Source: a bacterium
GTDB lineage: Bacteria > Arandabacterota > Arandabacteria > Arandabacterales > JALGWA01
Direction of reading: 5' to 3'
Assembly: GCA_050125095.1 (NCBI GenBank)
Contig: JASFEA010000006.1
Coordinates: forward strand, 1-45,990
DNA length: 45,990 nucleotides
Notes under the pieces: model-generated
What the model saw: only the letters and a program-made list of their open reading frames with translations
Database searches by the model: none
What the model was told of the DNA's origin: nothing
Program-made: the position numbers and the translations under genes
Shown here: piece after piece, positions 642 through 19,226 of the stretch
Layout of the letters: every line of letters begins with the position of its first letter
Position numbering within the stretch: the stretch's first letter is position 1

Positions 642-1700
642 ATGGCACCTAAAGCCAAATCGAAGGGCCCTGTCGAGAGGGTGGAAAAATCCGAAGACAG
701 AGAAAAGACACTCAATGTCACCATTACGCAGATAGAAAGACAATTCGGCAAGGGCTCGATCATGAAGCTGGGTGAAGGTGTTTCCCTGGGCGACATCGGC
801 ACGATCTCCACGGGCTCTATAGGCCTCGATCACGCTCTCGGCGTCGGCGGCGTGCCCCGGGGCAGGGTAATCGAGGTCTACGGTCCCGAGTCATCGGGCA
901 AGACCACGCTTGTTCTTCACATTATCGCCAATGCCCAGAGAGAGGGCGGGCTGGCGGCCTTCGTGGACGCCGAGCACGCGCTCGACCCCGACTATGCGAG
1001 GAAACTCGGGGTGGACGTGGACAACCTCCTCGTGTCCCAGCCCGATACTGGCGAGCAGGCCCTGGAGATTGCCGAGATGCTGGTTCGTTCAGGGGCCGTG
1101 GACGTCGTCGCCATAGACTCGGTGGCCGCGCTGGTGCCCAGGGCCGAGATAGAGGGAGAAATGGGCGAGGCCCAGGTCGGGCTCCAGGCGAGGCTGATGT
1201 CGCAGGCGCTTCGCAAGCTGACGGGCAGCATATCCAAATCGAGGACCTGCGTGATCTTCGTAAACCAGATCCGCATGAAGATCGGCGTCATGTTCGGGAA
1301 TCCCGAAACGACTTCAGGAGGCCGCGCGCTCAAGTTCTACTCGTCGGTCAGGATGGACATAAGGCGTATCGGCTCTATCAAGGAGCACGATACCGTGGTC
1401 GGCAACCGGACCAGGGTCAAGGTGGTCAAGAACAAAGTGGCCCCTCCGTTCAGGGATGCCGAGTTCGATCTTCTCTACGGAGAGGGCATTTCCAAGGAAG
1501 GCGAGCTTCTCGACCTCGGCGTGAACTACGATGTCGTCGAGAAGACGGGGACCTGGTATTCCTTCGAAAAGGAAAGACTGGGCCAGGGACGGGACAACTC
1601 CCGCAAGTACCTCAAGGAAAATCCCGACATCGCCCGGAAGCTCGAGGAGAGGATCAGGGAAACGCTGGAGATGCCCACACCCCAGGCAAATGAAGCGTGA
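642..1700 (+). CDS. recA: Recombinase RecA
   Basis: GPESSGKTT Walker [41 protein letters not shown]. Confidence 0.99.
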
Positions 1701-2376
1701 TAGCTCGGCCCGGGGACGCAGACTCTCGATTGTAAAGCTCTCCAAGGTGCCGCGGAAGGGCGAGTATACTGTCGCCCTCTCCGACGGCTACCGCTTCAGA
1801 GTAACCGCCGAGCAGCTCTCCCGCGCAGGTCTTGAAGAGGGGAGAGACCTGGACCCGGATGAGATTCCCGTAATGGAGAGGGCGTACGAGACCGCGGCGG
1901 CAAGGCGTGCGGCTTTAAGGCTTCTCAAGGTGAGGCCAAGGGCCTCGGGCGAGCTCCGGCGCGAGCTCGTCAGGCGCAAGCACCGGGCGGAGACCATCGG
2001 CGCCGTGATTGCCGACCTTGAGGAGACGGGGGCGGTGGACGACCGGCTGTTCGCGCGCCTGTGGATCAAAGAGAGAGTGGAGAAGAAAGGCTACGGGAAG
2101 CGGCGTATCGCCTCGGAGCTCTTCTCCAAAGGTGTCGACAGGGATATTGTCGAGAACGAGCTCAGGACCGGCTTTGATCGGGACAGCGAGCTGGCGGTCG
2201 CGGTGCGGTCCGCTCGCGGTCGCCTCAGGAGGCTGGGGTCGGTTCCTCTTGAAACCAGGAAGCGACGCATATATACATATTTATTAAGGAGTGGATTCAC
2301 ATCCGACATCGCAGGCGAGGCCACGAAGTCGGTACTGGAGCCATACATCGGAGATGAAAGTGATGACAACGGATGA
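1690..2376 (+). CDS. recX: Regulatory protein RecX (long form)
   Basis: [39 protein letters not shown]; overlaps the recA stop. Start moved from 1531 to ATG 1690. Confidence 0.88.
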
Positions 2377-4984
2377 GCTGAGGAGACTTTTTCTCGATTA
2401 CTTCCGCGAGAAGGGGCACACCGTCGTGCCCAGCGCTTCGCTTGTTCCCGAAGGCGACCCGACCCTGCTTTTTAACGTCGCGGGCATGGTGCAGTTCAAG
2501 CAGTTCTATGCCTGCAAGGGCGAGATTCCGTTTACGCGGGCCGCCTCGGTGCAGAAGTGCCTCAGGGCGACGGATCTCGAAGAGGTGGGACGCACCATCA
2601 AGCACCATACTTTCTTCGAGATGCTGGGCAATTTCTCATTCGGCGATTACTTCAAGCGTGAGGCCATCGAGTGGGCGTGGGATTTCCTCACCAATGTCGT
2701 GAAGCTCCCGGTAGGCCGCCTTGTGGTCTCGGTGCATGTGGATGACGGCGAGAGCGAGAAGATCTGGGTTGACTCCATGGGGGTGGACAAGGACAGGGTC
2801 TACAGGCTCGGGGATGAAGAGAACTTCTGGGGCCCGGCCGGCGCTAGCGGCCCGTGCGGGCCGTGCTCGGAGATCCACTACGACTTCGGTCCCGAGGCCG
2901 GCTGCGGCAAGGTGGAATGCGACCCGGCCTGCGACTGCGGAAGGTTCATTGAAGTGTGGAACCTGGTGTTTCCCCAGTTCTACCAGGACACGGACGGCAG
3001 CCGCGGCCCGCTCGAGCGCAAGGGCGTCGATACCGGCATGGGTCTCGAGAGGCTCGCGGTCGTCTGCCAGGGGGCGGATTCGCTGTTCGACACGGATGTC
3101 TTCAAACCCATAATCGAGTTCATCAAGGACGAGGTCGACTTCGGCGACCGCGGGGAGGCCGATGAGGTCAACGTCCGCGTGATCGCAGATCACGCGCGGG
3201 CGCTGTGCTTCGCCATCTCCGAAGGCGCGCTTCCATCCAATGAGGGAAGGGGCTATGTCATAAGGAGGATCTTAAGGCGCGCCGTGGTCAAGGCCCTTAA
3301 CCTCGGGCAGGACAAGCCGTTTCTATACAGGGCCGCCGGCAGGGTCATAGACGTGATGAGGGGCGCGTACCCCGAGCTCGACGACAGGCGCGAACAGATA
3401 GCCATAATAATCAAGTCGGACGAGGAGCGATTCCAGGGGACGCTTCAGCGGGGCATGTCCATACTCAACGCCGCCCTGGAAGAGATCGGATCGAAGGGGG
3501 GAAAAGAGGTTCCCGGAGCGACGGTGTTCAAGCTCTACGACACCTATGGTTTCCCGGTCGAGATCACGCATGAGCTGGCGTCGAATGCCGGGCTGGGTAT
3601 CGACGCCGAGGGATTCGAGCGCGAGATGGAGGAGCAGCGCGAGCGCGCGAGGCAGGCGAGCAAGATCGGCCGGGAGCTGGAACCCGGTGAAGGCGCCACT
3701 GAGGTTTCCGAAGCATTCGTGGGTTACGACCTCTTTGAAGTTCCCACGGTGATAAAGTCGCTGGGCTCGGAGCCCGGCCGGGTAACAAGCGCGTCGGCGG
3801 ATGAAGAGGTCGACATAGAGCTCGACAGGACCCCGTTCTATCCCGAGTGCGGCGGGCAGGTGGCCGATGTGGGAACCATAGTCGGGCCGTCGGGGAAGGG
3901 ACTGGTCGTGGACGTCAGGTGGTTCGGCGGCACCAGGATAATGCACAGGGTGCTCGTCGAACACGGCACGCTCTCGGCGGGCGACGGCGTTGTCGCCAAG
4001 ATCGACCTCGAGAGGAGAAAGGACGTCGAGAGAAACCACACTGCGACGCATCTTCTTCACGCCGCCCTGAGGTCGGTTCTCGGCGGCCACGTCAGGCAGG
4101 CGGGGTCGCTTGTGGCCCCGGACCGGTTGAGATTCGACTTCACTCATTACGAGCCGGTGGGAGAGGATGAGCTCCGCAAGGTCGAGTCGATTGTGAACGA
4201 AAAAGTGCTCAGCAACGTCCCGGTGGGCTGGTCGGTGATGGCTTATGAAGATGCCAGGGCCAGGGGAGCCGTCGCGCTCTTCGGCGAGAAGTACGGCCAG
4301 CAGGTGCGCATGGTGGAGATAGAGAACTCCAGCTGCGAGCTGTGCGGCGGGACGCATGTGACGAACACCGGGGAGATAGGGCTTTTCAGGATCGCCTCGG
4401 AGTCGGGCATCGCCGCCGGCGTCAGGAGAATCGAAGCCCTTACCGGGCATGCCGCACTGGAGGACGCGCGCGCCGCGTCGCGCGAGCTGCAGAATGTGTC
4501 GGCAGCCCTCAAGGTGCCCGCCAGGGAGCTCGAAGACGCCGCGCGCAGGTTGTCAGAGAGGGTCAGGGCGCTTGAGAAGGAGCTCTCCGAAGTCAGGCAG
4601 GAGATGGCCTCGGGCCAGGTCGACGACCTTATCGGCAGAGCAGAAGATGTTGACGGCATGGCCGTCGTAAGCGCCGAAGTCGCGGGCGCCAATATGGATC
4701 TCTTGAAGCATCTCGTGGACCGGGTGCGCGACAAGCTCCCGAGCGGGGTAATCTGTCTGGGCAGCGGCGCCGGCGGGCGGGCAGTGGTCGTTGTCAGCGT
4801 AGACCAGGAGCTAGTTGACAGCCGCGGCGTGAAGGCCTCATTCATAGCCAAGAAGATCGGCGAGATGGTCGGGGGCAAGGGTGGCGGCAAAGACACTTTC
4901 GCCCAGGCCGGCGGCAAGGACCCCGGCGCGCTCGGCGATGCGCTCAAGGCCTGTCGTGAGGTAGTTGCCGATATTGCTGGATAA
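2363..4984 (+). CDS. alaS: Alanine--tRNA ligase
   Basis: DPTLLFNVAGM, HHTFFEMLGNFSFGDYFK, DTGMGLER, NHTATHLLH, ELCGGTH, GGKGGG; start is ATG 2363 or 2354. Confidence 0.98.
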   Translation: MTTDELRRLFLDYFREKGHTVVPSASLVPEGDPTLLFNVAGMVQFKQFYACKGEIPFTRAASVQKCLRATDLEEVGRTIKHHTFFEMLGNFSFGDYFKREAIEWAWDFLTNVVKLPVGRLVVSVHVDDGESEKIWVDSMGVDKDRVYRLGDEENFWGPAGASGPCGPCSEIHYDFGPEAGCGKVECDPACDCGRFIEVWNLVFPQFYQDTDGSRGPLERKGVDTGMGLERLAVVCQGADSLFDTDVFKPIIEFIKDEVDFGDRGEADEVNVRVIADHARALCFAISEGALPSNEGRGYVIRRILRRAVVKALNLGQDKPFLYRAAGRVIDVMRGAYPELDDRREQIAIIIKSDEERFQGTLQRGMSILNAALEEIGSKGGKEVPGATVFKLYDTYGFPVEITHELASNAGLGIDAEGFEREMEEQRERARQASKIGRELEPGEGATEVSEAFVGYDLFEVPTVIKSLGSEPGRVTSASADEEVDIELDRTPFYPECGGQVADVGTIVGPSGKGLVVDVRWFGGTRIMHRVLVEHGTLSAGDGVVAKIDLERRKDVERNHTATHLLHAALRSVLGGHVRQAGSLVAPDRLRFDFTHYEPVGEDELRKVESIVNEKVLSNVPVGWSVMAYEDARARGAVALFGEKYGQQVRMVEIENSSCELCGGTHVTNTGEIGLFRIASESGIAAGVRRIEALTGHAALEDARAASRELQNVSAALKVPARELEDAARRLSERVRALEKELSEVRQEMASGQVDDLIGRAEDVDGMAVVSAEVAGANMDLLKHLVDRVRDKLPSGVICLGSGAGGRAVVVVSVDQELVDSRGVKASFIAKKIGEMVGGKGGGKDTFAQAGGKDPGALGDALKACREVVADIAG

Positions 4985-5180
4985 AACAGAAGAAAGACGC
5001 CTGGCCGAGTTCCCCTGTGAGTGGGCCTGCGGAGTATGCGCCGCGGTGTGCGCGGCACAGGCGATAGACTACGTCCCCGGGGCGGTGATTGTGCAGAGCG
5101 GTCGATGCACCGGCTGCGGCGACTGTGTCAGGGTCTGTCCCCACGGTATTCTCAAGGAGGAGCACCTTGCGCGACTATGA
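4965..5180 (+). CDS. Small 2x[4Fe-4S] ferredoxin-like protein
   Basis: CEWACGVCAAVC and CTGCGDCVRVCP motifs; overlaps the alaS end and the reductase start; TTG start. Confidence 0.8.
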   Translation: MPILLDKTEERRLAEFPCEWACGVCAAVCAAQAIDYVPGAVIVQSGRCTGCGDCVRVCPHGILKEEHLARL

Positions 5181-6345
5181 CGTCATTGTCGCCGGCGGAG
5201 GCTGCGCCGGCCTCTGGGCGGCGATCGTCGCCGCGCGCCGAGGAGCAAGGACGCTCCTGCTCGAGAAGGAGGGCGATATCGGCGAGAAGATAAGGTGCGC
5301 CGAGGGCGTGGGGACCAGAGGTATATCGCAGTTTGTCGACATCGATGCCGGCTGGATCGCGAGCGAGGTTCATGGCGGCAGGTTTTTCTCGCCGGACGGC
5401 AACTGCGTGAGCGCCGATGAGCCCGGCTGCGGCTTCATTCTTCATAAGGACCTGTTCCTCAAGGGGCTGGCGGACATGGCGAGAGAAGCCGGGGCGGAGA
5501 TCAGGACCTCAAGCAGGGTGGCGGGGCTGAAGCCGCTTGACGGCGGAGGATTCGAAGTGTGCCTTGGGGACGGCCGGGGGACCTCGGGGGACAAGCTGGC
5601 CTGCGGGGCCGTGGTCGCCGCCGATGGCATTCAGTCGGGCGTCGCGCGCCTTGGGGGCCTCGATACGCATATCCCTACCGATGAGGTCTTCATCTGCGCG
5701 CAGAACACGGTGTCTTCGGTGGACGTCGACCGGCATATGGTCGAGTTTCATTTCGGCAGCCGGATCGCCCCCGGCGGCTACGCCTGGGTGTTTCCCAAGG
5801 GTGATTCCATGGCCAATGTGGGGGTAGGCATAAGGTCCGGAGCCGCGCACGGCCGCGCATATGATTATCTCGGGGAGTTCATGAAAAGCCGCTGCCCGGG
5901 CGCGCACATCGAGAGGTCGATAGTGGGCGGCGTGCCGGCTGTAAGGAAGGCGCCGAGGGGTCTTTACAGAGGCCTTTTTCTGGCCGGCGACGCGGCGCGC
6001 GCCGCCGACCCGGTTTCGGGAGCCGGAATAGTGCCCGCGTTGGAGTCCGCCGCCGTGAGCGGCGAATACGCGGCAGTCCTGGCGCTGGGCGAGATGCCCT
6101 ACAGAGATGTGGAGCGCGAGTTCAAGAAGAAATACGAAGGCGTGCTCAAGTGGAGAAAGCTCCGCTATGCTCTCAAGAAGGTGTTGACCGCCCTTACCGA
6201 CGCGGAGTACTCAAGACTGGTCGGCCTGATAGACGAATACTGCTCCTCAGGAGCCAGCCTTCAGGAGTCCGGCAAGCTCGTTAAGTTCTTCATCAAATCC
6301 ATGCCGCGCAACTTCGGCATGGTCAGGCACCTTGCGGGGATCTAA
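5167..6345 (+). CDS. Geranylgeranyl reductase family FAD oxidoreductase (digeranylgeranylglycerophospholipid reductase-like)
   Basis: YDVIVAGGGCAG FAD motif, IRCAEG, PGGYAWVFPKG, GDAA..DPVSGAGI; TTG 5167 after AAGGAGG RBS. Confidence 0.85.
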   Translation: MRDYDVIVAGGGCAGLWAAIVAARRGARTLLLEKEGDIGEKIRCAEGVGTRGISQFVDIDAGWIASEVHGGRFFSPDGNCVSADEPGCGFILHKDLFLKGLADMAREAGAEIRTSSRVAGLKPLDGGGFEVCLGDGRGTSGDKLACGAVVAADGIQSGVARLGGLDTHIPTDEVFICAQNTVSSVDVDRHMVEFHFGSRIAPGGYAWVFPKGDSMANVGVGIRSGAAHGRAYDYLGEFMKSRCPGAHIERSIVGGVPAVRKAPRGLYRGLFLAGDAARAADPVSGAGIVPALESAAVSGEYAAVLALGEMPYRDVEREFKKKYEGVLKWRKLRYALKKVLTALTDAEYSRLVGLIDEYCSSGASLQESGKLVKFFIKSMPRNFGMVRHLAGI

Positions 6346-6346
6346 A

Positions 6347-7105
6347 ATGGCCGGCGTATACGAGCACATGCTGAGTTTCAAGACTTCGGACAGGGCGGGG
6401 TACGTCGTGCTGATCGATCCTGACCGCATCCCGATGGACGACATCGAGGAAAGGGTCGCGCTCATCAGCCGGTATGCCGACCTCGTCTTCATAGGAGGCA
6501 GCATAGTAACACGCGGGAGCTTCGATGAAGCCATAAGGCGCGTCAAGAGAGCTTCCGAAGTTCCGGTGGTGATTTTCCCGGGCGACGCCACGCAGGTATC
6601 CGGCGGGGCCGACGCCATCATGTTCCTGTCGCTCGTAAGCGGGCGGAACGCCGACCTTCTCATCGGCGAGCACGTCAAGGCCGCCCCATTGGTGCGGAAC
6701 CTGGGGCTAGAGGCCATTCCAGTGGCGTACATTCTTGTTGAATCGGGCCGGACCACATCAGTACAATTCATGAGCCAGACGCTGGCGATACCCGGGGACA
6801 AGCCTGAGATAGCTATGGCTCATGCCCTGGCCGGGGAGTACCTGGGCATGAAGGCGGTATTCCTCGAGGCCGGGAGCGGCGCGGAGAATCACGTGCCCGC
6901 GGGCATGGTGAAGGCAGTCTCGGATTACGTGTCAGTCCCGGTCATGGTCGGCGGAGGCATCAGGACGCCTGACATGGCGGGGGAACTCGTGAAGTCAGGT
7001 GCGACTTTCATAGTCACCGGCGACATAATAGAAAAACACGCAAGCGAAAGCATGCTGGAGGACTTCAGCAGGGCCGTACGCGAGACCTGCCGCGAAAGGG
7101 GTTGA
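6347..7105 (+). CDS. Geranylgeranylglyceryl phosphate synthase (GGGPS/PcrB family, group II-like)
   Basis: LIDPD, IGGS, FPG, DA..FLSLVSGRN, YILVESG, FLEAGSGA, VGGGIR, IVTG motifs. Confidence 0.9.
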   Translation: MAGVYEHMLSFKTSDRAGYVVLIDPDRIPMDDIEERVALISRYADLVFIGGSIVTRGSFDEAIRRVKRASEVPVVIFPGDATQVSGGADAIMFLSLVSGRNADLLIGEHVKAAPLVRNLGLEAIPVAYILVESGRTTSVQFMSQTLAIPGDKPEIAMAHALAGEYLGMKAVFLEAGSGAENHVPAGMVKAVSDYVSVPVMVGGGIRTPDMAGELVKSGATFIVTGDIIEKHASESMLEDFSRAVRETCRERG

Positions 7106-8175
7106 TCGATACGAAAGCCGTTATCTTGAGTGGAGGAAAGGGAACAAGGCTCAGACCGATAACCCATACGGGTGCCAAGCAGCTGGTCCCGGTGGCCAAC
7201 AAACCCATTCTCTTTTACGGAATCGAAGCGATCAGAGACGCGGGCATAACCGACATAGGAATAGTCGTCGGCGACACGGCTGCGGAGATCGAGGCGGCGG
7301 TGGGAGACGGGTCGGAGTTCGGAGTCAAGGCGACGTATATCAGGCAGGAGGCCCCGCTCGGCCTTGCGCATGCGGTGAAGATAGCCAGGGACTTCGTCGG
7401 CACTGACAGGTTCATTGTCTATCTGGGGGACAACCTCATTATCGAGGGCATCAAGCAGTTCGTAGAGCAGTTCGAATCGCTGTCGCCGAACTCCCAGATA
7501 CTGCTCGCCCACGTGCCGAATCCGCAGGACTTCGGCGTCGCCGAGCTTCGGGGAGAAAGGGTGGCGCGCCTTGTGGAGAAGCCCAAAGAGCCCAAGACGG
7601 ATCTCGCGCTCGTAGGCGTCTACATGTTCGATGAGAGCATATTCGAGGCGGCGGACAGGATAAAGCCCTCCTGGAGGGACGAGCTCGAGATAACAGACGC
7701 CATACAGTACCTGATAGAGCATGATTTCGACGTCAGGTTCCGCATCATAGATGGGTGGTGGAAAGATACGGGCAAGCTGGAGGACATGCTGGAGGCCAAC
7801 CGGATGATTCTCGAGCGGATCGAACCGTCGGTCGACGGCGATATAGACTCGAAGTCCAAGACCGACGGCAAGGTGGTGGTCGGCAAGGGCGCCAGAATAG
7901 AGAACTCCATTCTCCGGGGGCCGCTCATAATCGGTGAAAACACGCGGATCGTCAATTCGTATATAGGGCCGTTCACATCCATCTATTATGACTGCGAGAT
8001 AACGGGCAGCGAAATAGAGCACAGCATAATCTTAGAGCGCAGTAAGATAGTGGATGTGGGGGCGCGAATCGAAAGCAGCCTTGTCGGCAAGAACGTAGTG
8101 ATAGAGAAGCATGCTCAGCGCCCGAAGGCATGCAGCTTCATGGTGGGCGACTACAGCCACATCGTGCTGGACTGA
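7102..8175 (+). CDS. rfbA: Glucose-1-phosphate thymidylyltransferase, long form
   Basis: ILSGGKGTRLRPITHTGAKQLVPVANKP, LVEKP, ELEITDA, WWKDTG; C-terminal hexapeptide repeats. Confidence 0.92.
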   Translation: MIDTKAVILSGGKGTRLRPITHTGAKQLVPVANKPILFYGIEAIRDAGITDIGIVVGDTAAEIEAAVGDGSEFGVKATYIRQEAPLGLAHAVKIARDFVGTDRFIVYLGDNLIIEGIKQFVEQFESLSPNSQILLAHVPNPQDFGVAELRGERVARLVEKPKEPKTDLALVGVYMFDESIFEAADRIKPSWRDELEITDAIQYLIEHDFDVRFRIIDGWWKDTGKLEDMLEANRMILERIEPSVDGDIDSKSKTDGKVVVGKGARIENSILRGPLIIGENTRIVNSYIGPFTSIYYDCEITGSEIEHSIILERSKIVDVGARIESSLVGKNVVIEKHAQRPKACSFMVGDYSHIVLD

Positions 8176-8195
8176 AGAACGGGGGGAGGTCGCTC

Positions 8196-9044
8196 TTGAA
8201 AATACTGGTCACCGGCGCCCGGGGCATGATGGGAACCGACATGTGTGACGTCCTCGCTCAAGGTCATGACGTGGCCGGCGTGGACATAGAGGATTTCGAT
8301 ATTCTTAACGGCGAGGCGGTGCTCGAGGCCATTGAAGCGCTGGCCCCCGAGATTGTGGTGCATCTCGCGGGCTTTACCAGGGTTGAGGACGCCGAGGACC
8401 AGAAGGACGAGGCCTTCAACACCAACGCGGTGGGCACGATGAATATGGCCAAGGCGTCGAGGGACGCGGGCGCCCGCCTTATATACGTGAGCACCGACTA
8501 TGTCTTCGACGGATCGAAAGATTCTCCCTATGTCGAGACCGACATTCCGGCCCCTATAAATTTCTACGGACTCACAAAGCTCTTCGGGGAGAGATACGCC
8601 TCCTCTCTGAACCCGCGCCATCTCATCGTCAGGACATCCTGGCTATACGGGCCAAACGGCAAGAACTTCGTTGATACGATACTCGCGAGGGCGAGAGAGG
8701 GCGCACCCTTGAGGGTGGTGGACGACCAGCGGGGCAGCCCGACATACACGTGTCACCTGGCGCGGGGAATCAGGGCGGCCCTGGAGAAGGGAGTCGAGGG
8801 GACGCTTCACATGGCCAACTCGGGAGAGACCACCTGGTATGAATTCGCCAGGACCGCCCTCGAACTGGCGGGCCTGGAGGCCGAGATCAAGCCCGTGTCC
8901 AGCAGCGAGTATGTTACCAAAGCGGCCCGCCCCAAGAACTCGGTGCTCGGGAGTCTGGTCATCGGACACGCCGGCCTCGAGCCGCTTCCCGACTGGAAGC
9001 ACGGTCTACGTGAGCACCTCGCGAGGCGAGAGGCGGCCCAATAA
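8196..9044 (+). CDS. rfbD: dTDP-4-dehydrorhamnose reductase
   Basis: ILVTGARGMMG, STDYVFDG, YGLTK, RTSWLYG, DDQRGSPT, ARPKNS; TTG 8196 after GGAGG. Confidence 0.92.
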   Translation: MKILVTGARGMMGTDMCDVLAQGHDVAGVDIEDFDILNGEAVLEAIEALAPEIVVHLAGFTRVEDAEDQKDEAFNTNAVGTMNMAKASRDAGARLIYVSTDYVFDGSKDSPYVETDIPAPINFYGLTKLFGERYASSLNPRHLIVRTSWLYGPNGKNFVDTILARAREGAPLRVVDDQRGSPTYTCHLARGIRAALEKGVEGTLHMANSGETTWYEFARTALELAGLEAEIKPVSSSEYVTKAARPKNSVLGSLVIGHAGLEPLPDWKHGLREHLARREAAQ

Positions 9045-9072
9045 TCAGGTTAGCAAGTGAGGTGAGCGCAGA

Positions 9073-9648
9073 ATGCCATGCGAATGGGTTAAGCAGACTC
9101 TGAAATCGGGAAGTGACCTTTATCTCCGGACTTCGGATACATGTTGCGACGACATCGCGGCCGCGGCGAGGGCTGTCCTCGAGACGCTCAAGGGCGGCGG
9201 CAAGGTACTTCTCTGCGGGAACGGGGGTAGCGCGGCCGACGCGCAGCACATCGCCACCGAGATGACGGTCAAGATGGGGAAGGTGCGCGAGCCCATGGCG
9301 GCCGTAGCGCTAACCACCAATCCGTCGCTGCTGACGGCCCAGGCCAACGACCTGGGTTTCGACACGGTGTTCTCCAGGCAGGTGGCGTCCCTCGGAAGCG
9401 CGAAGGACATACTCATCGCCATAAGTACGAGCGGCAACTCGCCCAACGTACTCGAGGCGGTGAACGCAGCGCGCGACATGAAGATGAAGACAATAGGCCT
9501 GACAGGGTGCGGGGGCGGTAAACTCGCTCCTCTCTGCGATATTCCCATTATCGTGCCGTCGGATGAGGTTCAGCGCATTCAGGAGGCGCATATCGCCATA
9601 GGCCACATGATATGCGAACACGCCGAGACGGGGCTGTACGGGGAGTAG
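9073..9648 (+). CDS. gmhA: D-sedoheptulose-7-phosphate isomerase
   Basis: CGNGGSAADAQH, ANDLGF..VFSRQ, ISTSGNSPN, RIQEAH. Confidence 0.93.
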   Translation: MPCEWVKQTLKSGSDLYLRTSDTCCDDIAAAARAVLETLKGGGKVLLCGNGGSAADAQHIATEMTVKMGKVREPMAAVALTTNPSLLTAQANDLGFDTVFSRQVASLGSAKDILIAISTSGNSPNVLEAVNAARDMKMKTIGLTGCGGGKLAPLCDIPIIVPSDEVQRIQEAHIAIGHMICEHAETGLYGE

Positions 9649-9708
9649 ACTTCAGAAACAAGCTCAGCGGTCTGAGAGCTTCCGCACAATTCCGGACAGG
9701 ATTCGGGT

Positions 9709-10350
9709 ATGGCACATCTTAAGAGCGTTTTCCTGGGGCTCCTGGGACTCAAGAAAGACAGGCGGCCTCAGCCGGTATCCAAGCAAGTCGTGGTGGAGAA
9801 CCTGCTCGATGCGCGATCAATCCTCGACTCGCTGGGAATAAGTTTCTGGCTCACCGACGGCACGCTCCTCGGTTATTTCCGCGAGGGGGACTTCATCGAA
9901 CATGACAGGGACGTCGATCTCGGCCTCATGATAGAATCCTACTCCGAAGACATCGTGCCGGCATTCCGGGAGAGAGGATTCGAGGTGAAGTACGTGTTGG
10001 GCGAGAAGAAGCGGGGGCTCGAGCTGTCTTTTGTCAGGAACCGGGTGAATGTCGACCTCTTCTTTTTCTACCGCGAGGGCGACCGCATCTGGCACGCGGG
10101 CTGGGAGGGGATTGACAAGGGAAGAAAGCGCAATCTGATCAAGTACTACTATGAGCCCTTCGACCTGAGGGAAATCGAATTCTACGGTGCGCGTTTCAAT
10201 GTCCCTGCGGACACTCTGAAGTATGTGGAGACGAAATACGGCGAGAGCTGGCGGACGCCCATCAGGGATTGGGACTGGGCCATGGGGCCGGCGAACGCCT
10301 TCCGGACCGACGTCATCCTGAAGAGGAACAGGAAGAAGATAGTCAGGTAG
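9709..10350 (+). CDS. LicD/fukutin-family phospho-ligand transferase
   Basis: FWLTDGTLLGYFREGDFIEHDRDVDLG, VDLFFFY, YVETKYGESWRTP. Confidence 0.85.
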   Translation: MAHLKSVFLGLLGLKKDRRPQPVSKQVVVENLLDARSILDSLGISFWLTDGTLLGYFREGDFIEHDRDVDLGLMIESYSEDIVPAFRERGFEVKYVLGEKKRGLELSFVRNRVNVDLFFFYREGDRIWHAGWEGIDKGRKRNLIKYYYEPFDLREIEFYGARFNVPADTLKYVETKYGESWRTPIRDWDWAMGPANAFRTDVILKRNRKKIVR

Positions 10351-10368
10351 ACGAACGGCACTGCGACA

Positions 10369-11220
10369 ATGAAGATCTCGGTGATCCTGAGCACATATGA
10401 ACGCCCCGACCTGCTTCGATTGGCGCTTCTATGCCTGAACCACCAGAGCCGCCTTCCGGATGAAGTCCTGATAATCGACGACGGCTCGGAAACCGACGTG
10501 GCATCGTCGGTGAGGGAGTATGCAGCGAATCTGGAATTCGGTTCAATCAAGTACATCCGCCAGGAAAACCGGGGATTCAGGCTGGCGAGGAGCAGGAATA
10601 ACGGCATACGCGAGGCTGAGGGGGACTATATCGTCTTCTGGGATCAGGATGTTCTCGCTACCAGGGGTTATCTGAATCTGTATTCGGAGTTCGGGCGCCC
10701 TGGGGAATTCCTGGTGGCTTTCCCCGTGCTTCTGAGTGAGGAGCAATCGGCGCTTGTAACACTTGATGAGGTCGTCCGATGTGATTACCTGAGCCTTCTG
10801 TCGACGGCCCAGCTCAAAGTGGTGCGCCGGCAATACTACAAAGACAGCTTCTATTACCATATGGGCAAGTTATTGCCATGCAGGCGATACAGACCCAAGG
10901 TGCGTGGCGGGTATTTCGGTCTTGCGCGCGACGACCTCCTCAGGGTTGACGGGTTCGACGAGAACTACAGGGGCTGGGGAGCGGAGGACGACGACCTGGG
11001 GCGCAGGCTCTATCGCGCCGGGGTAGTGGGCAGGACGGTGTTCCGCCACGAGTTTCCTTTACATCTCTGGCACCCTCATGAGACCGCTGCTCAGGACAGC
11101 CCGAACCTCCCATACTACACCCGCAGGCTCGGAGAAATCGCCCGTGGCGACTACAGGGCCGTGAACGGCATCTCGAATCCTCTGGATAACGACGCGCCCA
11201 CCGTGGAGCGGATCAAGTAA
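10369..11220 (+). CDS. Glycosyltransferase family 2 with galactosyltransferase-like C-terminal domain
   Basis: ISVILSTYERP, IIDDGS, ARSRNNG, FWDQD, GFDENYRGWGAEDDDL, HLWH. Confidence 0.9.
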   Translation: MKISVILSTYERPDLLRLALLCLNHQSRLPDEVLIIDDGSETDVASSVREYAANLEFGSIKYIRQENRGFRLARSRNNGIREAEGDYIVFWDQDVLATRGYLNLYSEFGRPGEFLVAFPVLLSEEQSALVTLDEVVRCDYLSLLSTAQLKVVRRQYYKDSFYYHMGKLLPCRRYRPKVRGGYFGLARDDLLRVDGFDENYRGWGAEDDDLGRRLYRAGVVGRTVFRHEFPLHLWHPHETAAQDSPNLPYYTRRLGEIARGDYRAVNGISNPLDNDAPTVERIK

Positions 11221-11236
11221 GAGATTGAGAATCCCG

Positions 11237-12370
11237 TCATGCTATTCGGTTAAGCATGTCCGTGAGGGACTCCCGGGTTAGCAGTCTGGGATTGTTCTTC
11301 ACCCGGTCCGGATTGAACCCGTTCTCGACGATCACCGATATGTCCTCCTTATTGATTCCGAGGTCGCGAAGGCGAGTCTCGAGATGGATTCGCCCCATCA
11401 GGCCGGTCAATGTCTCCGCGGCTTCCCCGGGGTCGGAGACCCCTATCAGCGAGACCAGTTTATCAAGGGTTTTCTTGACGTATGCCAGACCTCTCTTGTC
11501 CAATACGTCATCCTCGGTTGCGCGTGAATTATAAACGAGCATGGACGGCAGCGTAAGGCCCACCGCGTGTCCGTGCGCAACCCCGAAATATGAAGTTATG
11601 GGATATGATACGGCGTGGCTTGCCGATGTCTTGGAGATGTTAATGGCCTTGCCTGCGAGATGAGCTGCCCGCGCCATGGCTTCCCTTGCCATTTCAGATG
11701 GGGCGTTCACCGCTTCCTCAAGGTTGTCCATGGCGAGTCGAATACCCTCCGCGGCGTAGTATGTCGATTCCTCGGTGGAGTTTACACTCCAGTATGACTC
11801 AATGGCCTGGCACAGCGCATCCATGCCCGTCACCGAAGTTACGGCGGGAGGGAGGCTCATTGTAAGCACCGGGTCTACTATGGCGGATGCCGGGAGCATT
11901 GACTCATGCTCCAGTGAGTACTTGGTCTTCTCCATGTAAACCACGGCGAAACACGTGGCTTCGCTTCCGGAACCCGCTGTCGTCGGTATCGCGATTAGGG
12001 GCTTGCCGGCCTTTCGCATCTCCTCGCGCTTAAGCACGTATGACCGAGGCTCTCCCTGTTGGGCTGCGAGTACGTTGACGGACTTGGCCATGTCGATTAC
12101 GCTTCCCCCGCCTACCGCGAGGACAAGATCGCAACCCGAGTCCATGAGACGGACAACGCCTCTTTCGATGTCCCCAATCTCCGGGTTCGTTGAGAAGTCG
12201 GAGAACGCGGTGTGTTCAATCCGTCCAAGGAGTGGCTCCAGCAAGCCTCTGGCGCCTGAGGTATCATAGGAATCCCCGCCCCTAACCAGGAAGATGCGGG
12301 AAGGTGAATGAACCCGCAGAACGTCGGGCAGAGCCTCAATCGCGCCTTTACCGACGTATTCGGTCTGCAC
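11237..12370 (-). CDS. Iron-containing alcohol dehydrogenase, putative phosphonoacetaldehyde reductase (makes 2-HEP)
   Basis: AVGGGSVIDMAK, AIPTTAGSGSE, DALCQAIESYWS, HAVSYPIT...HGHA, RVKNNP; directly downstream of ppd. Likely GTG start 12370 (alternative 12391). Confidence 0.85.
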   Translation of the reverse strand: MQTEYVGKGAIEALPDVLRVHSPSRIFLVRGGDSYDTSGARGLLEPLLGRIEHTAFSDFSTNPEIGDIERGVVRLMDSGCDLVLAVGGGSVIDMAKSVNVLAAQQGEPRSYVLKREEMRKAGKPLIAIPTTAGSGSEATCFAVVYMEKTKYSLEHESMLPASAIVDPVLTMSLPPAVTSVTGMDALCQAIESYWSVNSTEESTYYAAEGIRLAMDNLEEAVNAPSEMAREAMARAAHLAGKAINISKTSASHAVSYPITSYFGVAHGHAVGLTLPSMLVYNSRATEDDVLDKRGLAYVKKTLDKLVSLIGVSDPGEAAETLTGLMGRIHLETRLRDLGINKEDISVIVENGFNPDRVKNNPRLLTRESLTDMLNRIA

Positions 12371-13502
12371 CGTCGCCCCCCTGGAGGTCACTCATGAAAG
12401 CCTCTTTGTTCTCGATCGGGGTGGTTGTCGGCCTGCCGAGGTCTTTCCGGGCGCCTTTCTTGACCCTGACAATCAGCATGCGCGGCCCGTCGGCTGAGAG
12501 CATCTCTCTACAGGCCCGATCCAAATCCTCTCGATTTTCCACGGTTGCCGCGCCCCTGTAGTTGTTCGCAAGGGCGAGGCGCTCGAAGCTGACAGTCGGC
12601 GAGGTTGTCGGCTGTCCGCCCGTTGAGTCGTAAGAATGATTATCGAATACCACATGATAGAGGTTCGGCGGCAGGTAATGCCCGATGGTCGACAGGGCCC
12701 CTTCCTGCATTATGACCGCTCCGTCGCCGTCCAGCACGACGGCTCTTCTGTTCTCTTTCCCGAGCGCCAGTCCAAGCGCTATCGACGCCGAGCAGCCCAT
12801 GGAGCCCACCGTGAGAAAATCCGATTGATGGCCCTGGCCCCTCGACTCGCGGTATTCGAATACCTCTCTCGACGTCTTCCCGGTGGTCGATACTATGAGT
12901 TCATCGCCGCGCAGGTTGTCGAGGAGCACCGTGATAGCCTCCTCTCTCGTCATCGTGCACTTGCGCTTATCGATTGTGGTCGAATCGTAATGCTCAAACG
13001 TGTCCCTCTTTACTATGAGCGCGTATGGTGTCTTTCGCTCGAGGGCGCATGACACGGCTTCCTTAATCAGCCCGGCCGCTTCTCCCGAGTCTCGGGGTAG
13101 GTGGGCATACGGGACTTCCAGCACTTCGAGCAGGGGAAGCGTTATCCTGCCCATCTTCCTGTGCTGGGGCTCGTCCTTCTTCCCGGGCTCGCCTCTCCAA
13201 CCGATCATCAGCACCATGGGGATTGAGTAGACTTCGGGGTCGGCGAGCGATGTCAGAGGATTCACGGCCTTTCCAAGGCCGGCGTTCTGCATGTAGACCA
13301 CGGCGAGGCTGCCGGTGGCGAGATAACGGCCCGCGGCTATTGCCACGGCCTCGCATTCATTGCAGGCGATGATGTTGTGTAGACCCCTGCCGTGGTTGTC
13401 GGCCAGAAACCTCATCCAGTCATTGAAAGTGCTGTCGGGCACGCCCGTGAAGAAGGTCAGGCCCTTCTTTTTCAGTATACCCCAGAGGTCTTCGCATTTC
13501 AT
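12348..13502 (-). CDS. aepY: Phosphonopyruvate decarboxylase (ThDP-dependent)
   Basis: [52 protein letters not shown] ThDP motif, [12 protein letters not shown] overlap with the pepM stop. Confidence 0.93.
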
Positions 13503-14800
13503 TCGCCCGCTCCAGGTATGAGTGTGAGTATGTCGGCAATGGGCAGACACTCCTGGCCGGCCTCCAGACATCGGTGGTGCTTGAGTATGCTCTCGGCAGT
13601 TCTCACCATGGCCGGGTAGGCGCTTCTAAGGAGGTGATTGGCGTAGATGACTATGTTCACGCCGGCCTCCATGAGCTCCTCCTCGGTTATTGCGCAATAG
13701 GTCGAAGGAACCGCCACAAGGGGGACTCGGAGAGCCAGCTTGCGGTATTCTGCCGCGAACTCGAGAATCTCCCCTGGATCCTTCTCTCTGCTGTGTATCA
13801 TGATTCCGTCAGCGCCGGCATCAATGTATGAGCGCGCCCGCATGAGCGCGTCATCCAGGCCCTTCTTGAGTATAAAACTCTCGATTCTGGCGATGATCAT
13901 GAAGTCCTCGGTGACCTGTGCTCTCTTGCCGCTCAGGACTTTCTCACTGAACGCATCTACATCGTCTTGTGTCTGCCTGACATCGGTCCCGAAAAGGGAG
14001 TTCCGCTTGGGGCCGGTCTTGTCCTCGATGATAACGGCCGAGACTCCGTGACGCTCGAGCGACTTGACCAGGAAAACGAAATTCTCCGTAAGCCCGCCAT
14101 TGTCTGCGTCAACCACTATGGGCTTGGTGGAGATGTCGACGATCTGCTCTATCGTCGCAAGCCGGGACGTGAAGTCCACCGCCCCGGTATCCGGTTTGCC
14201 TTTCGCAGCCGAGTCCGTGAGGCTGCTCACCCACATGCCGTCGAACTCCCTCGCCGTATCGCCCTCGACAATCCTGGTCTTTTCCACTATGCGGGCTGTC
14301 AGACCGTTGTGCACTTCGAGTATCCGCACTATGGGCTTCAGTTCCAGCAGCCTGCGGAGCTTCTTGCGCCTCAGGTCGGGCGTGGTTCCTATTTGCAAAG
14401 CGTCTCTGATGAGCTGCGTTGACGACACCCCTTCGGTATACTCGGGCTCGACGAGCTTGCCGCCCCATCTCTTGAGGGCCTCTATTACGCGGGCGCGCGT
14501 CTGCTGCTGGACACCCGTCTTCCAGTCGCTGCCATGGACAACGTAGTCGGGCTTGACCTTGAGGAGATTGGGCACATAGTCCAGCGTATCCTGGGGTATC
14601 ACGCTTGAGACGCCTTTCATACCCTCGATTATGGCCTTCCTGTGCTCGTAGGACAGCAGGGGGACCCGCTTGTAGCTCGCTATGGCCTCATCGGTCAGCA
14701 GACCTACGGTTACGTCCCCCAGCTTGCTTGCCTCTCTGATTATGTTGATGTGGCCGTGATGTACGAGATCTGCGCACATGCCGACGTATACTCTGGCCAC
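13499..14800 (-). CDS. pepM: Phosphoenolpyruvate mutase with N-terminal cytidylyltransferase domain
   Basis: PepM signature [31 protein letters not shown]-terminal DLVHHGH (HxGH) domain; AAAGGAGG RBS, GTG start. Confidence 0.95.
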
Positions 14801-15992: not shown

Positions 15993-15993
15993 G

Positions 15994-17530: not shown

Positions 17531-17538
17531 CTCCGGCC

Positions 17539-18414: not shown

Positions 18415-18482
18415 GGCGGGACTTAACCCGATGCTAATGTGTCTTTGGAGTTGATTTTCGGGGAGAGGAGGCCTGAGGCAGC

Positions 18483-19067: not shown

Positions 19068-19070
19068 CGG

Positions 19071-19145: not shown

Positions 19146-19226
19146 GTTTATGCCAGCCGACCAGCCTGGTACCGATTCCCGCAGGACAACGGAGGATGCG
19201 ACAAACGGAGAAAGGACTCAACCCAG

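What the first reader, a model, noticed from the sequence alone, without database searches (positions are those of the whole stretch)
4965..7105. Archaeal-type ether-lipid module (ferredoxin, GGR, GGGPS) inside a bacterial recA-alaS operon
Seen: three overlapping or abutting genes encode a ferredoxin, a geranylgeranyl reductase with the IRCAEG and PGGYAWVFP motifs of archaeal lipid reductases, and a GGGP synthase. Established: GGGPS makes the first ether bond on glycerol-1-phosphate, and GGR saturates the isoprenoid chains. The Methanosarcina GGR depends on an adjacent ferredoxin. Some FCB-group bacteria are already known to carry GGGPS. Inference: this bacterium may make saturated phytanyl-type ether lipids from a housekeeping-coupled unit. 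G1P dehydrogenase and DGGGPS are not in this window.
Basis: partly seen in the sequence, partly recalled or inferred. Interest (0 to 1): 0.8.

Follow-up and report, generated by a model that had tools for sequence, protein, structure and literature searches.

The report
Ferredoxin-GGR-GGGPS ether-lipid operon in Eisenbacteria
A wetland bacterium of the FCB group carries, right behind its alanyl-tRNA synthetase gene, three coupled genes that most likely make and saturate archaeal-style isoprenoid ether lipids, which adds a new lineage to a phenomenon already described in related bacteria.

Summary
On the + strand, alaS (to 4984) is followed by a 71-aa 2x[4Fe-4S]-type ferredoxin (4965-5180), a geranylgeranyl reductase (GGR; start corrected to 5167, ends 6345), a group II GGGP synthase (6347 or 6332 to 7105), then rmlA and rmlD. 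The junctions overlap or abut.

The genome is a 91%-complete MAG whose closest named relatives are Candidatus Eisenbacteria. GGR sits directly upstream of GGGPS in 15 of 16 genomes of its order. The 2 sister-order genomes have alaS-GGGPS-rmlA-rmlD without ferredoxin or GGR. GGGPS is therefore old at this site, and the ferredoxin-GGR pair is a lineage-specific insertion.

A DGGGPS-like UbiA lies on another contig and co-occurs with GGGPS across relatives. No G1P dehydrogenase or CarS was found. CdsA, PlsY and GpsA are present.

The GGR resembles euryarchaeal lipid reductases far more than ChlP or MenJ. Natural ferredoxin-GGR fusions and repeated ferredoxin-GGR adjacency support a dedicated redox pair.

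The concept is already published for FCB bacteria (Villanueva 2020), so I file this as a new member of a known kind. No lipid or expression data exist, and no dedicated GGPP synthase is evident.

The parts
642..1700 (+). recA, first gene of the co-directional run
   Evidence: TIGR02012 scores 564 against a cut-off of 325.3. recA lies upstream of alaS in most related loci.
2354..4984 (+). alaS (alanine--tRNA ligase). The start is ATG 2354 or ATG 2363 within the ORF listed from 2291. The stop overlaps the ferredoxin start by 20 nt.
   Evidence: TIGR00344 scores 890.6 against 457.05. ORF, translation.
4965..5180 (+). Small ferredoxin of 71 aa with 8 Cys: Cx3Cx2Cx3C, then Cx2Cx2Cx3CP. Inferred electron donor to the GGR.
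   Evidence: Fer4 family hits. All eight Cys are invariant in 14 orthologues. It lies upstream of GGR in 10 of 11 order-level loci; the 11th locus ends before that point. Natural Fdx-GGR fusions exist.
5167..6345 (+). Geranylgeranyl reductase family flavoprotein (392 aa). It is the only GGR-family gene over the cut-off in this genome.
   Evidence: TIGR02032 scores 169.2 against 158.8 and NF041160 scores 173.5. PDB 3oz2 matches at 6e-51. C44, PGGYAWVFP and LAGD are conserved. It is the only hit over the cut-off in the genome.
6347..7105 (+). Group II GGGP synthase (PcrB family). The alternative start TTG 6332 would overlap GGR by 14 nt.
   Evidence: NF003198 scores 269.6 against 247 and TIGR01769 scores 188.2 against 161.55. 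PDB 4jej matches at 1e-49 and 4mm1 at 1e-43, against group I 2f6u at 2e-9. Start position.
7102..8175 (+). rmlA (long form). It overlaps the GGGPS stop by 4 nt and is conserved downstream of GGGPS in this order, its sister order and TA06.
   Evidence: TIGR01208 scores 485.6 against 320.25. Synteny.
8130..9044 (+). rmlD, conserved downstream neighbour.
   Evidence: TIGR01214 scores 293.6 against 224.05. Synteny.

Best explanation
The three genes are the window's share of an FCB-type pathway for isoprenoid glycerol ether lipids. They are expressed as part of the recA-recX-alaS...rmlAD run.

Proposed steps:
1. GGGPS joins a polyprenyl diphosphate, most likely C20 GGPP, to glycerol phosphate by the first ether bond.
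2. The DGGGPS-like UbiA on contig C92 adds the second chain.
3. The bacterial CdsA probably activates the product in place of the missing CarS.
4. The FAD enzyme GGR hydrogenates the chain double bonds. Its electrons come from the small 2x[4Fe-4S]-type ferredoxin encoded just upstream.

The product would be a saturated or partly saturated archaeol-like lipid, sitting beside ordinary acyl-G3P phospholipids.

What is shown: the gene identities, their coupling and conservation, the co-occurrence of GGGPS with the DGGGPS-like gene, the ferredoxin-GGR partnership at the genomic level, and the failure to find G1PDH and CarS.

What is inferred: co-transcription, all enzyme activities, the chain length, the degree of saturation, the glycerol-phosphate stereochemistry, and whether the lipid is abundant.

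History: GGGPS behind alaS is the old FCB arrangement, and the ferredoxin-GGR pair was inserted at the base of this order.
For: Family assignments:
- All three genes exceed curated family cut-offs.
- The GGR's best solved relative is the T. acidophilum digeranylgeranylglycerophospholipid reductase (176.9 bits, 6e-51). S. acidocaldarius GGR scores 79, and no quinone or chlorophyll reductase scores above 43.
- Among NCBIfam models, DGGPL_Thplmales scores 173.5, BchP-ChlP 82.6 and MenJ 40.7.
- The nearest named clusters outside its own clade are Syntrophoarchaeum, Methanosarcinales, Delongbacteria, Cloacimonetes and Zixibacteria.
- The catalytic Cys, PxxYxWxFP, GxGxxG and LxGD are conserved.

Conservation:
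- GGR lies directly upstream of GGGPS in 15 of 16 genomes of the order. The miss is 57% complete.
- alaS-fdx-GGR-GGGPS-rmlA is seen wherever the contigs reach.
- GGR also abuts GGGPS in 3 further lineages out of the 80 loci: TA06 (L038), Poribacteria (L096, with a ferredoxin and a UbiA) and L098 (with a UbiA).

Ferredoxin-GGR partnership:
- All 9 tested family representatives of 442-491 aa with an N-terminal offset are N-terminal Fer4-GGR fusions, and one is named Zixiibacteriota. The GGR of G028 is a fusion as well.
- G019 has a UbiA-fdx-GGR cluster.
- Archaeal precedent: in T. kodakarensis, Fd2 (TK1087) co-purifies with the adjacent GGR (TK1088) (PMC12016516, passages). Euryarchaeal lipid GGRs often have a 4Fe-4S neighbour (PMC10821996, passages).

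Rest of the pathway:
- The DGGGPS-like UbiA on C92 has M. jannaschii DGGGPS (6m31) as its best PDB hit at 2e-34, with the next hit at 1e-5.
- Among 41 genomes, 20 have both GGGPS and the DGGGPS-like gene, 3 have one only (57%, 85% and 94% complete) and 18 have neither.
- GGR orthologues (E<1e-50) occur in 18 genomes, and 17 of these have GGGPS.
- CdsA, PlsY and GpsA are present.

Biochemical precedent: Cloacimonetes GGGPS and DGGGPS made unsaturated PG-archaeol in E. coli (PMC7852524, passages).
Against: - There is no lipid, enzyme or expression evidence for this organism. No RNA run holds the stretch.
- No G1P dehydrogenase was found in any of the 18 genomes of the phylum as held. The best Fe-ADH_2 hit there is 45 bits. 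The glycerol-phosphate substrate is therefore unexplained.
- No dedicated GGPP synthase is evident. 13 of 15 relatives of the order have exactly two trans-prenyl synthases.
  - One is IspB-like and lies beside menA.
  - The other is IspA-like. It exceeds the FPP-synthase model's cut-off (339.6 against 275) and carries Tyr-Ser before the first Asp-rich motif. By a rule I recall, not one I tested, that predicts FPP.
- The GGR fails every archaeal equivalog cut-off (173.5 against 780). In its clade the RxxFD flavin-switch motif is replaced by KxxFL.
- The DGGGPS-like protein is below the curated cut-offs (190.3 against 269; 170.6 against 296).
- The GGR tree is unrooted and its deep nodes are unresolved.
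- Five relatives with GGGPS and the DGGGPS-like gene lack a GGR orthologue, so saturation is optional in this pathway.
Confidence: 0.7

Rival explanations
1. GGGPS here makes a minor single-chain ether lipid, or one of another chain length (C15, or C35-40 as Bacillus PcrB does), rather than a membrane-forming C20 diether. The product could be a carrier or anchor for the neighbouring sugar pathway. GGR would tailor that product.
For: - No dedicated GGPP synthase was found, only an IspA-like and a long-chain synthase.
- No G1PDH or CarS was found.
- The biological function of bacterial GGGPS products is called unknown in PMC7888582 (passages).
- GGGPS is followed by nucleotide-sugar or glycosyltransferase genes in three lineages: the window, TA06 (L038) and L098.
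Against: - The DGGGPS-like UbiA co-occurs with GGGPS in 20 of 23 genomes that hold either gene, and it sits next to GGR and GGGPS in L096 and L098.
- The closest solved GGGPS relatives are C20 enzymes of group II (4jej, 4mm1), not PcrB (30.7 bits).
- Cloacimonetes homologues use GGPP in vitro (PMC7852524).
Confidence: 0.17
2. The GGR mainly saturates menaquinone or polyprenol side chains, as MenJ or the archaeal prenyl reductases do. Its position next to GGGPS would then say nothing about its substrate.
For: - The genome has menA beside a long-chain prenyl synthase, and only one GGR-family gene.
- Archaeal GGR paralogues with other substrates are known (PMC10821996, passages).
Against: - The MenJ model scores 40.7 against a cut-off of 700, and BchP/ChlP scores 82.6 against 343.3.
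- GGR-GGGPS adjacency arose or persists in at least four lineages.
- GGR orthologues are nested in the set of genomes that have GGGPS: 17 of 18.
- The sister-order genomes lack a GGR orthologue at E<1e-40. I did not test whether they keep the menaquinone genes.
Confidence: 0.1
3. The cluster is an inactive relic or a chance juxtaposition.
For: No expression data exist.
Against: - The frames are intact and the catalytic residues conserved across 15 genomes, at 43-69% GGR identity.
- The genes overlap.
- Composition equals that of the neighbours: GC3 is 0.68-0.79 for the trio against 0.72-0.80 for the neighbouring genes.
Confidence: 0.03

Closest known systems
Archaeal-type ether-lipid pathway of FCB-group bacteria (Ca. 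Cloacimonetes; Villanueva et al. 2020, ISME J, PMC7852524; passages read)
   Same: It has GGGPS plus a DGGGPS-type UbiA plus a GGR related to euryarchaeal enzymes. There is no G1PDH (egsA/araM) and no CarS. The bacterial acyl-G3P pathway is present, and there are two polyprenyl synthases.
   Different: - In Cloacimonetes, GGGPS is co-localised with DGGGPS. Here DGGGPS lies on another contig, and GGGPS is coupled to ferredoxin and GGR behind alaS.
- That paper's main text does not mention Eisenbacteria, a ferredoxin partner in the bacteria, or an alaS linkage (term counts of 0).
- I did not see its supplements (Fig. S15b, the GGR tree), and they may bear on this comparison.
Euryarchaeal lipid GGR with a dedicated adjacent ferredoxin. 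Examples: M. acetivorans MA1484/MA1485 (Isobe 2014, seen only as a cited title) and T. kodakarensis TK1088/TK1087 (PMC12016516, passages).
   Same: A small 4Fe-4S ferredoxin gene lies next to a GGR with the catalytic Cys and PxxYxWxFP. The nearest named GGR clusters include Methanosarcinales and Syntrophoarchaeum.
   Different: - The host is bacterial, and identity to archaeal representatives is only 35-39%.
- The clade sits on its own long stem (0.58) in the tree.
- The first Cys motif of the ferredoxin is Cx3Cx2Cx3C.
- RxxFD is replaced by KxxFL.
- I could not test orthology of the ferredoxin to MA1485 or TK1087, because no such sequence was on hand.
T. acidophilum digeranylgeranylglycerophospholipid reductase (PDB 3oz2)
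   Same: It is the best solved match, aligned over residues 1-366. The R-C-x-E-G, P-x-G-Y-x-W-V-F-P-K-G and L-x-G-D-A-A-R motifs align.
   Different: The window's protein scores 173.5 bits on the Thermoplasmatales equivalog model, whose cut-off is 780. It is a family member, not an orthologue by NCBI's criterion.
Bacteroidetes group II GGGPS (PDB 4jej; I recall this as Flavobacterium johnsoniae, which no call confirmed)
   Same: It is the best solved match for the window's GGGPS: 172.1 bits over residues 7-235.
   Different: The gene context differs. The biological role of the Bacteroidetes enzyme is called unknown (PMC7888582, passages).
Bacillus PcrB / heptaprenylglyceryl phosphate synthase (PDB 4naf, 4nae)
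   Same: The same TIM-barrel family (PF01884).
   Different: It is a distant group I relative: 30.7 bits against 172 for group II enzymes. Bacillus has AraM as a G1PDH, and none was found here.

Membership tests
GGGPS, group II (PcrB family, PF01884 / TIGR01769 / NF003198) | Scores above the curated family cut-offs | tested here: met
   NF003198 scores 269.6 against 247. TIGR01769 scores 188.2 against 161.55. TIGR01768 scores 167.9 against 113.25. PF01884 scores 142.3 against 23.9.
GGGPS, group II (PcrB family, PF01884 / TIGR01769 / NF003198) | Closer to group II than to group I or PcrB enzymes | tested here: met
   4jej scores 172.1 and 4mm1 scores 152.7 bits. 2f6u scores 40.8 and 4naf scores 30.7 bits.
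GGGPS, group II (PcrB family, PF01884 / TIGR01769 / NF003198) | Conserved barrel and phosphate-binding residues (the GSG and GGGI loops) | tested here: met
   G181 S182 G183 and G207 G208 G209 are invariant in 13 homologues. That these are the phosphate loops is recalled, not tested.
GGGPS, group II (PcrB family, PF01884 / TIGR01769 / NF003198) | Forms the ether bond between GGPP and G1P | not testable with these tools
   This needs an enzyme assay. The substrate chain length is uncertain because no dedicated GGPP synthase was seen.
Geranylgeranyl reductase family (TIGR02032) | Score above the family cut-off, with the GGR catalytic domain | tested here: met
   TIGR02032 scores 169.2 against 158.8. 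PF22578 scores 76.2 against 27.
Geranylgeranyl reductase family (TIGR02032) | GxGxxG, the catalytic Cys (Cys47 of S. acidocaldarius GGR), PxxYxWxFP and LxGD | tested here: met
   G10, G12, G15, C44, P202, Y205, W207, F209, G274 and D275 are invariant in 25 sequences. The motif list comes from PMC10821996 (passages).
Geranylgeranyl reductase family (TIGR02032) | RxxFD flavin-switch motif | tested here: not met
   The window has HKDLFL, and the Eisenbacteria clade has K/HxxFL where other sequences have RxxFD. S. acidocaldarius GGR also lacks this motif (PMC10821996), so it does not define the family.
Archaeal DGGGPL reductase equivalogs (NF041160, NF041080, NF041385) | Score above the equivalog cut-off | tested here: not met
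   173.5 against 780, 101.5 against 580, and 42.1 against 700. The protein works like these enzymes by inference but is not an orthologue by this criterion.
BchP/ChlP (TIGR02023) and MenJ (NF045655) | Score above the cut-off | tested here: not met
   82.6 against 343.3, and 40.7 against 700.
2x[4Fe-4S] ferredoxin serving as GGR partner | Two four-Cys cluster motifs | tested here: met
   The eight Cys are invariant in 14 sequences, and Fer4_7 scores 35.1 against 27. The first motif has the atypical spacing Cx3Cx2Cx3C in this order.
2x[4Fe-4S] ferredoxin serving as GGR partner | Genomic coupling to GGR (adjacency or fusion) | tested here: met
2x[4Fe-4S] ferredoxin serving as GGR partner | Physical or electron-transfer interaction with GGR | not tested
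   The complex prediction could not be run because the queue was full. A biochemical assay is needed.
DGGGPS (UbiA; NF009521 / NF009523), gene on contig C92 | Score above the curated cut-off | tested here: not met
   190.3 against 269, and 170.6 against 296. It is still the best-scoring family, and the best PDB hit is DGGGPS 6m31 at 2e-34.
FCB-type mixed pathway (Villanueva 2020) | GGGPS, DGGGPS-like and GGR present; no G1PDH; no CarS; bacterial acyl-G3P pathway present | tested here: met
   The absences are 'not found' in a 91%-complete MAG. G1PDH was also not found in the other 17 genomes of the phylum as held.

The most novel reading that the evidence does not exclude
GGGPS is an ancestral gene of the FCB superphylum, tied to a housekeeping operon and linked to alaS in at least eight named phylum-level lineages. 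One order of Eisenbacteria added a ferredoxin:GGR pair to it. These bacteria would then constitutively build fully saturated archaeol-type diethers into an otherwise bacterial membrane, without any G1P dehydrogenase. That would be a natural, stable mixed membrane. Its glycerol-phosphate stereochemistry would be either G3P or supplied by an unknown route, and its C20 chains would come from an enzyme that looks like an FPP synthase.
Probability: 0.3. Interest if true: 0.75.

Novelty: new member of a known kind. Interest (0 to 1): 0.5.

Why it matters
The lipid divide between Archaea and Bacteria is a long-standing question. FCB bacteria are the main natural candidates for mixed membranes, but the evidence rests mostly on Cloacimonetes genes expressed in E. 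coli.

This locus adds a second lineage, conserved across its order, in which first-ether-bond formation and chain saturation are physically coupled and sit in a housekeeping operon. That argues for routine use of these genes.

It also supplies a compact construct to test: fdx-GGR-GGGPS plus one UbiA. The natural ferredoxin-GGR fusions could solve the known problem that heterologous GGRs need a matching reductant.

The deep alaS-GGGPS synteny gives a marker for tracing how old the bacterial GGGPS is.

Tried and rejected
- **Complex prediction of GGR with the ferredoxin** (with FAD and two 4Fe-4S). It was never accepted because the queue was full, so there is no result.
- **Expression.** The look-up of sequencing runs listed no RNA holder. 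Only DNA contigs could be laid.
- **UbiA at 16637-17530 as DGGGPS.** Rejected: it is the decaprenyl-phosphate phosphoribosyltransferase type.
- **Fe-ADH at 11237-12391 as G1PDH.** Rejected: it scores 22.9 bits on the G1PDH model against a cut-off of 413. Its best model is the phosphonate-linked Fe-ADH.
- **Recent transfer from Archaea.** GC and GC3 give no signal. The tree is unrooted and unresolved at depth, so no donor can be named.
- **Internal promoters or terminators.** Matches were not above shuffled expectation: 7 promoter-like sites against 3.9 +/- 2.1, and 9 terminator-like sites against 7.3 +/- 3.0. They give no evidence either way.
- **Insertions between alaS and GGGPS in other lineages** (L047, L049, L077). 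These are restriction-modification genes or unrelated genes, not lipid genes.
- **The Atlas look-up** gave only leads: a mix of FCB and euryarchaeal clusters.
- **Literature searches.**
  - Eisenbacteria + ether lipid: 1 unrelated paper.
  - GGGPS + alaS: 1 unrelated paper.
  - Selenoprotein + GGR: 1 unrelated paper.
  - GGR + ferredoxin + fusion: 36 papers, 12 listed. No listed title concerned natural fusions, and I read passages of only one.

Full report
**What is there.**

The window is contig C6 of a metagenome-assembled genome (3.35 Mb, 268 contigs, 91% complete, 3.5% contamination). From 642 to 11220 every gene lies on the + strand:

- recA (642-1700) and recX (ends 2376)
- alaS (about 2354-4984)
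- a 71-aa ferredoxin (4965-5180)
- a geranylgeranyl reductase family protein, GGR
- a GGGP synthase, GGGPS
- rmlA (7102-8175), rmlD (8130-9044), gmhA, a LicD-family protein and a GT2 glycosyltransferase

The first-listed GGR ORF begins at 5089. The start that matches all orthologues is TTG 5167, behind AAGGAGGAG, which gives 392 aa. GGGPS most likely starts at ATG 6347, one base after the GGR stop, and TTG 6332 is the alternative. The junctions from alaS to rmlD are -20, -14, -14 (or +1), -4 and -46 nt. Promoter-like and terminator-like matches are not above shuffled expectation. The layout therefore looks like one translationally coupled unit, but co-transcription is inferred. No RNA run holds the stretch. 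The quoted motifs IRCAEG (5290-5307) and PGGYAWVFP (5770-5796) are present. Two other public runs contain single contigs that span 4500-7600 at about 99.3% identity (the two may be one data set).

**Who carries it.**

The closest named records for the GGGPS neighbourhood are Candidatus Eisenbacteria MAGs, an FCB-group lineage. The phylum as held comprises 18 genomes: 16 in the window's order and 2 in a sister order.

**Conservation.**

By the coordinates, GGR lies directly upstream of GGGPS in 15 of 16 genomes of the order. The exception, G015, is 57% complete and neither gene was found in it.

In 11 order-level loci fetched with 1.5-kb flanks:

| Feature | Loci with it |
|---|---|
| GGGPS | 11 of 11 |
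| GGR | 11 of 11 |
| rmlA | 11 of 11 |
| Ferredoxin | 10 of 11 |
| 3' end of alaS | 9 of 11 |
| rmlD | 9 of 11 |

Every miss coincides with the end of a locus. G004 shows the full run recA-alaS-fdx-GGR-GGGPS-rmlA-rmlD. Both sister-order genomes have recA-alaS-GGGPS-rmlA-rmlD with nothing between alaS and GGGPS, and no GGR orthologue at E<1e-40.

**GGGPS behind alaS is old.**

I examined the 80 best GGGPS loci from one genome per species. In 55 of them alaS lies upstream on the same strand, and in 43 of those the gap between HSP ends is 200 nt or less. Of the 25 without alaS, 2 have essentially no upstream sequence.

- Named lineages with the linkage: Eisenbacteria, Zixibacteria, Ignavibacteria, Cytophagia/Bacteroidota, KSB1, Kryptoniota, Gemmatimonadota and Latescibacterota.
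- Named lineages without it among these loci: Marinimicrobia, Cloacimonadota, Calditrichota, TA06, Poribacteria, Stahlbacteria and Lentisphaeria.

GGGPS has long been there, and only the ferredoxin-GGR pair was inserted, at the base of one order. GC and GC3 of the pair equal those of their neighbours, so nothing marks a recent transfer.

**What the GGR is.**

- It exceeds the GGR family cut-off (TIGR02032, 169.2 against 158.8).
- Its best model is the Thermoplasmatales DGGGPL reductase (173.5 bits), far ahead of BchP/ChlP (82.6) and MenJ (40.7). It is also far below every equivalog cut-off.
- Its best solved relative is T. acidophilum DGGGPL reductase, 3oz2 (6e-51), aligned over residues 1-366.
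- In the 5.8-billion-protein search, roughly the first 89 hits (41-98% identity) appear to form its own clade. I judged this from the identity values, and the few named hits are Eisenbacteria or simply 'bacterium'.
- At 35-39% identity the nearest named clusters are Ca. Syntrophoarchaeum, Methanosarcinales/Euryarchaeota, Delongbacteria, Cloacimonetes and Zixibacteria.
- I built a quick ML tree of 94 sequences. It held the window, 8 loci, 7 named proteins, 3 clade representatives, and representatives P0121-P0199 of at least 340 aa. Representatives P0200-P0265 and shorter ones were left out. All 9 Eisenbacteria-type sequences fall on one branch (SH-aLRT 99) with a long stem of 0.58. The four labelled archaeal sequences form one group (92), and the deep nodes are open. 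The tree is unrooted and contains no ChlP or MenJ outgroup.
- Invariant across 25 sequences: GxGxxG, C44 (the catalytic Cys position), P202/Y205/W207/F209, and G274/D275.
- Particular to the clade: GGGC(A/S)G in the dinucleotide fold, and K/HxxFL where other sequences have RxxFD.
- It is the only GGR-family gene over the cut-off in the genome.

**Why the ferredoxin belongs to the GGR.**

- The eight Cys are invariant in 14 orthologues. The second motif is the canonical Cx2Cx2Cx3CP. The first is Cx3Cx2Cx3C in this order but canonical in the two outgroup sequences.
- Outside the order, a ferredoxin precedes the GGR in Poribacteria (L096) and in G019, within a UbiA-fdx-GGR cluster.
- In G028 the GGR carries an N-terminal Fer4 domain.
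- Among the 150 best representatives of the family, I picked the 11 of 442-491 aa whose match starts well inside the protein. Nine are N-terminal Fer4-GGR fusions, and two (P0090, P0099) have extensions with no Fer4 hit.
- One fusion is named Ca. Zixiibacteriota and another simply 'bacterium'.
- The window's ferredoxin aligns to the fused domain of P0164 at 50% identity over 38 residues.
- The domain order in the fusions equals the gene order here.
- Archaeal precedent. T. kodakarensis Fd2 (TK1087) co-purifies with the neighbouring GGR (TK1088) (PMC12016516, passages). Euryarchaeal lipid GGRs commonly have a 4Fe-4S neighbour (PMC10821996, passages). I saw the M. acetivorans pair only as a cited title.
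- A complex prediction could not be run.

**The rest of the pathway.**

- Four UbiA genes exist: a DGGGPS-like one on C92 next to uppP, menA on C180, the DPPRT-type one in the window, and one unassigned.
- The best families for the C92 protein are NF009523 and NF009521 (190.3 and 170.6 bits, both below cut-off). Its best solved relative is M. jannaschii DGGGPS at 2e-34, with the next hit at 1e-5.
- Co-occurrence across 41 genomes:

| Gene content | Genomes |
|---|---|
| Both GGGPS and DGGGPS-like | 20 |
| One of the two only (G012 85%, G013 94%, G015 57% complete) | 3 |
| Neither | 18 |
| GGR orthologue (E<1e-50) | 18 |
| GGR orthologue together with GGGPS | 17 |

- Five genomes with both synthases lack a GGR (G016, G017, G032, G033, G036).
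- G1PDH was not found in the genome or in the other 17 genomes of the phylum. All Fe-ADH_2 hits there are 45 bits or less.
- CarS was not found.
- CdsA, PlsY and GpsA are present.
- This pattern matches what Villanueva et al. reported for Cloacimonetes. [quoted passage not shown]

**An open point: the prenyl donor.**

The genome, and 13 of 15 relatives in the order, have exactly two trans-prenyl synthases.

- One, beside menA, has the small residues before the first Asp-rich motif that I recall as typical of long-chain enzymes.
- The other, beside dxs, exceeds the FPP-synthase model's cut-off. It has Tyr-Ser at the positions I recall as the chain-length determinant of E. coli IspA.

Either this enzyme also makes GGPP or the GGGPS uses another chain length. 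This is the main reason my confidence is not higher.

**Comparison and verdict.**

The system works like the FCB-type archaeal-lipid pathway combined with the euryarchaeal ferredoxin-dependent GGR. The three proteins pass family-level membership tests and fail equivalog-level ones.

New relative to what I could read:
- the lineage;
- the compact ferredoxin-GGR-GGGPS coupling behind alaS;
- the deep alaS-GGGPS synteny;
- the natural ferredoxin-GGR fusions in bacteria.

My searches found no paper on any of these. I did not see the supplements of PMC7852524, and subscription journals are not covered by the library.

The central idea is published, and nothing here demonstrates a lipid. I therefore rate the finding a new member of a known kind, with moderate interest.

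Noticed in passing
L028-L107 (80 related loci); window 2354-7105: alaS lies directly upstream of GGGPS on the same strand in 55 of 80 loci. These come from Eisenbacteria, Zixibacteria, Ignavibacteria, Cytophagia/Bacteroidota, KSB1, Kryptoniota, Gemmatimonadota and Latescibacterota. In 43 of the 55 the gap is 200 nt or less. No paper was found with 'GGGPS' + 'alaS'. The reason for the linkage is unknown.
   Followed up: partly
L096:4867-4869 (Ca. Poribacteria MAG, G041): The GGR in a UbiA...fdx-GGR-GGGPS cluster has one in-frame TGA exactly at the catalytic Cys column (VR*AEG against IRCAEG). A perfect 7-bp hairpin lies 14 nt downstream, and the genome has SelB over its cut-off (357.8 against 242). 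The sister cluster P0127 has Cys at that column. This is a candidate selenocysteine GGR. The same MAG also shows a split UbiA gene, so an assembly error is not excluded.
   Followed up: partly
P0145, P0164, P0174, P0216, P0219, P0234, P0248, P0254, P0260; L117:10052-11470: These are natural fusions of an N-terminal dicluster ferredoxin domain to GGR. One is named Ca. Zixiibacteriota.
   Followed up: yes
window 9709-15344: A phosphonate cluster lies convergent to the operon. It holds a PEP mutase fused to a cytidylyltransferase (13499-14800, -), phosphonopyruvate decarboxylase (12348-13571, -), an Fe-ADH (11237-12391, -) and a second cytidylyltransferase-like gene (14688-15344, -). It faces LicD (9709-10350) and a GT2 (10369-11220). 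This probably decorates a glycan or lipid with a phosphonate.
   Followed up: no
window 15985-20150: A PRK/uridine-kinase family gene (15985-16644) is followed by a UbiA of the decaprenyl-phosphate phosphoribosyltransferase type (16637-17530). A GHMP kinase, SpoVG and PRPP synthetase (19104-20150) come next. This may be a polyprenyl-phosphoribose pathway, which would be unusual outside Actinobacteria.
   Followed up: no
G000 contigs C61 and C180; relatives G001-G017: The lineage has only two trans-prenyl synthases, one IspA-like and one IspB-like beside menA. No dedicated GGPP synthase is evident, although GGGPS, a DGGGPS-like gene and GGR are all present.
   Followed up: partly
window 7102-11220; L038:6801-9810; L098:6717-9447: In three separate lineages GGGPS is followed at once by nucleotide-sugar or glycosyltransferase genes: rmlA-rmlD-gmhA here and in TA06, and GT2-GT2-deacetylase in L098. 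This may hint at glycosylated head groups or a lipid-linked glycan.
   Followed up: no
window 29203-30630: SelA (PF03841, 490.8 bits) is present, so this organism has selenocysteine machinery. Its own GGR uses Cys.
   Followed up: no
L024:6827-6997 (G021): This unrelated lineage has alaS-ferredoxin-GGGPS, with the GGR orthologue elsewhere in the genome (C17). The ferredoxin can therefore sit at the alaS/GGGPS junction without the GGR.
   Followed up: partly
L047:4877-5845; L049:2811-5404: Restriction-modification genes are inserted between alaS and GGGPS in two Ignavibacteria/Bacteroidota MAGs, so the junction tolerates insertions.
   Followed up: yes
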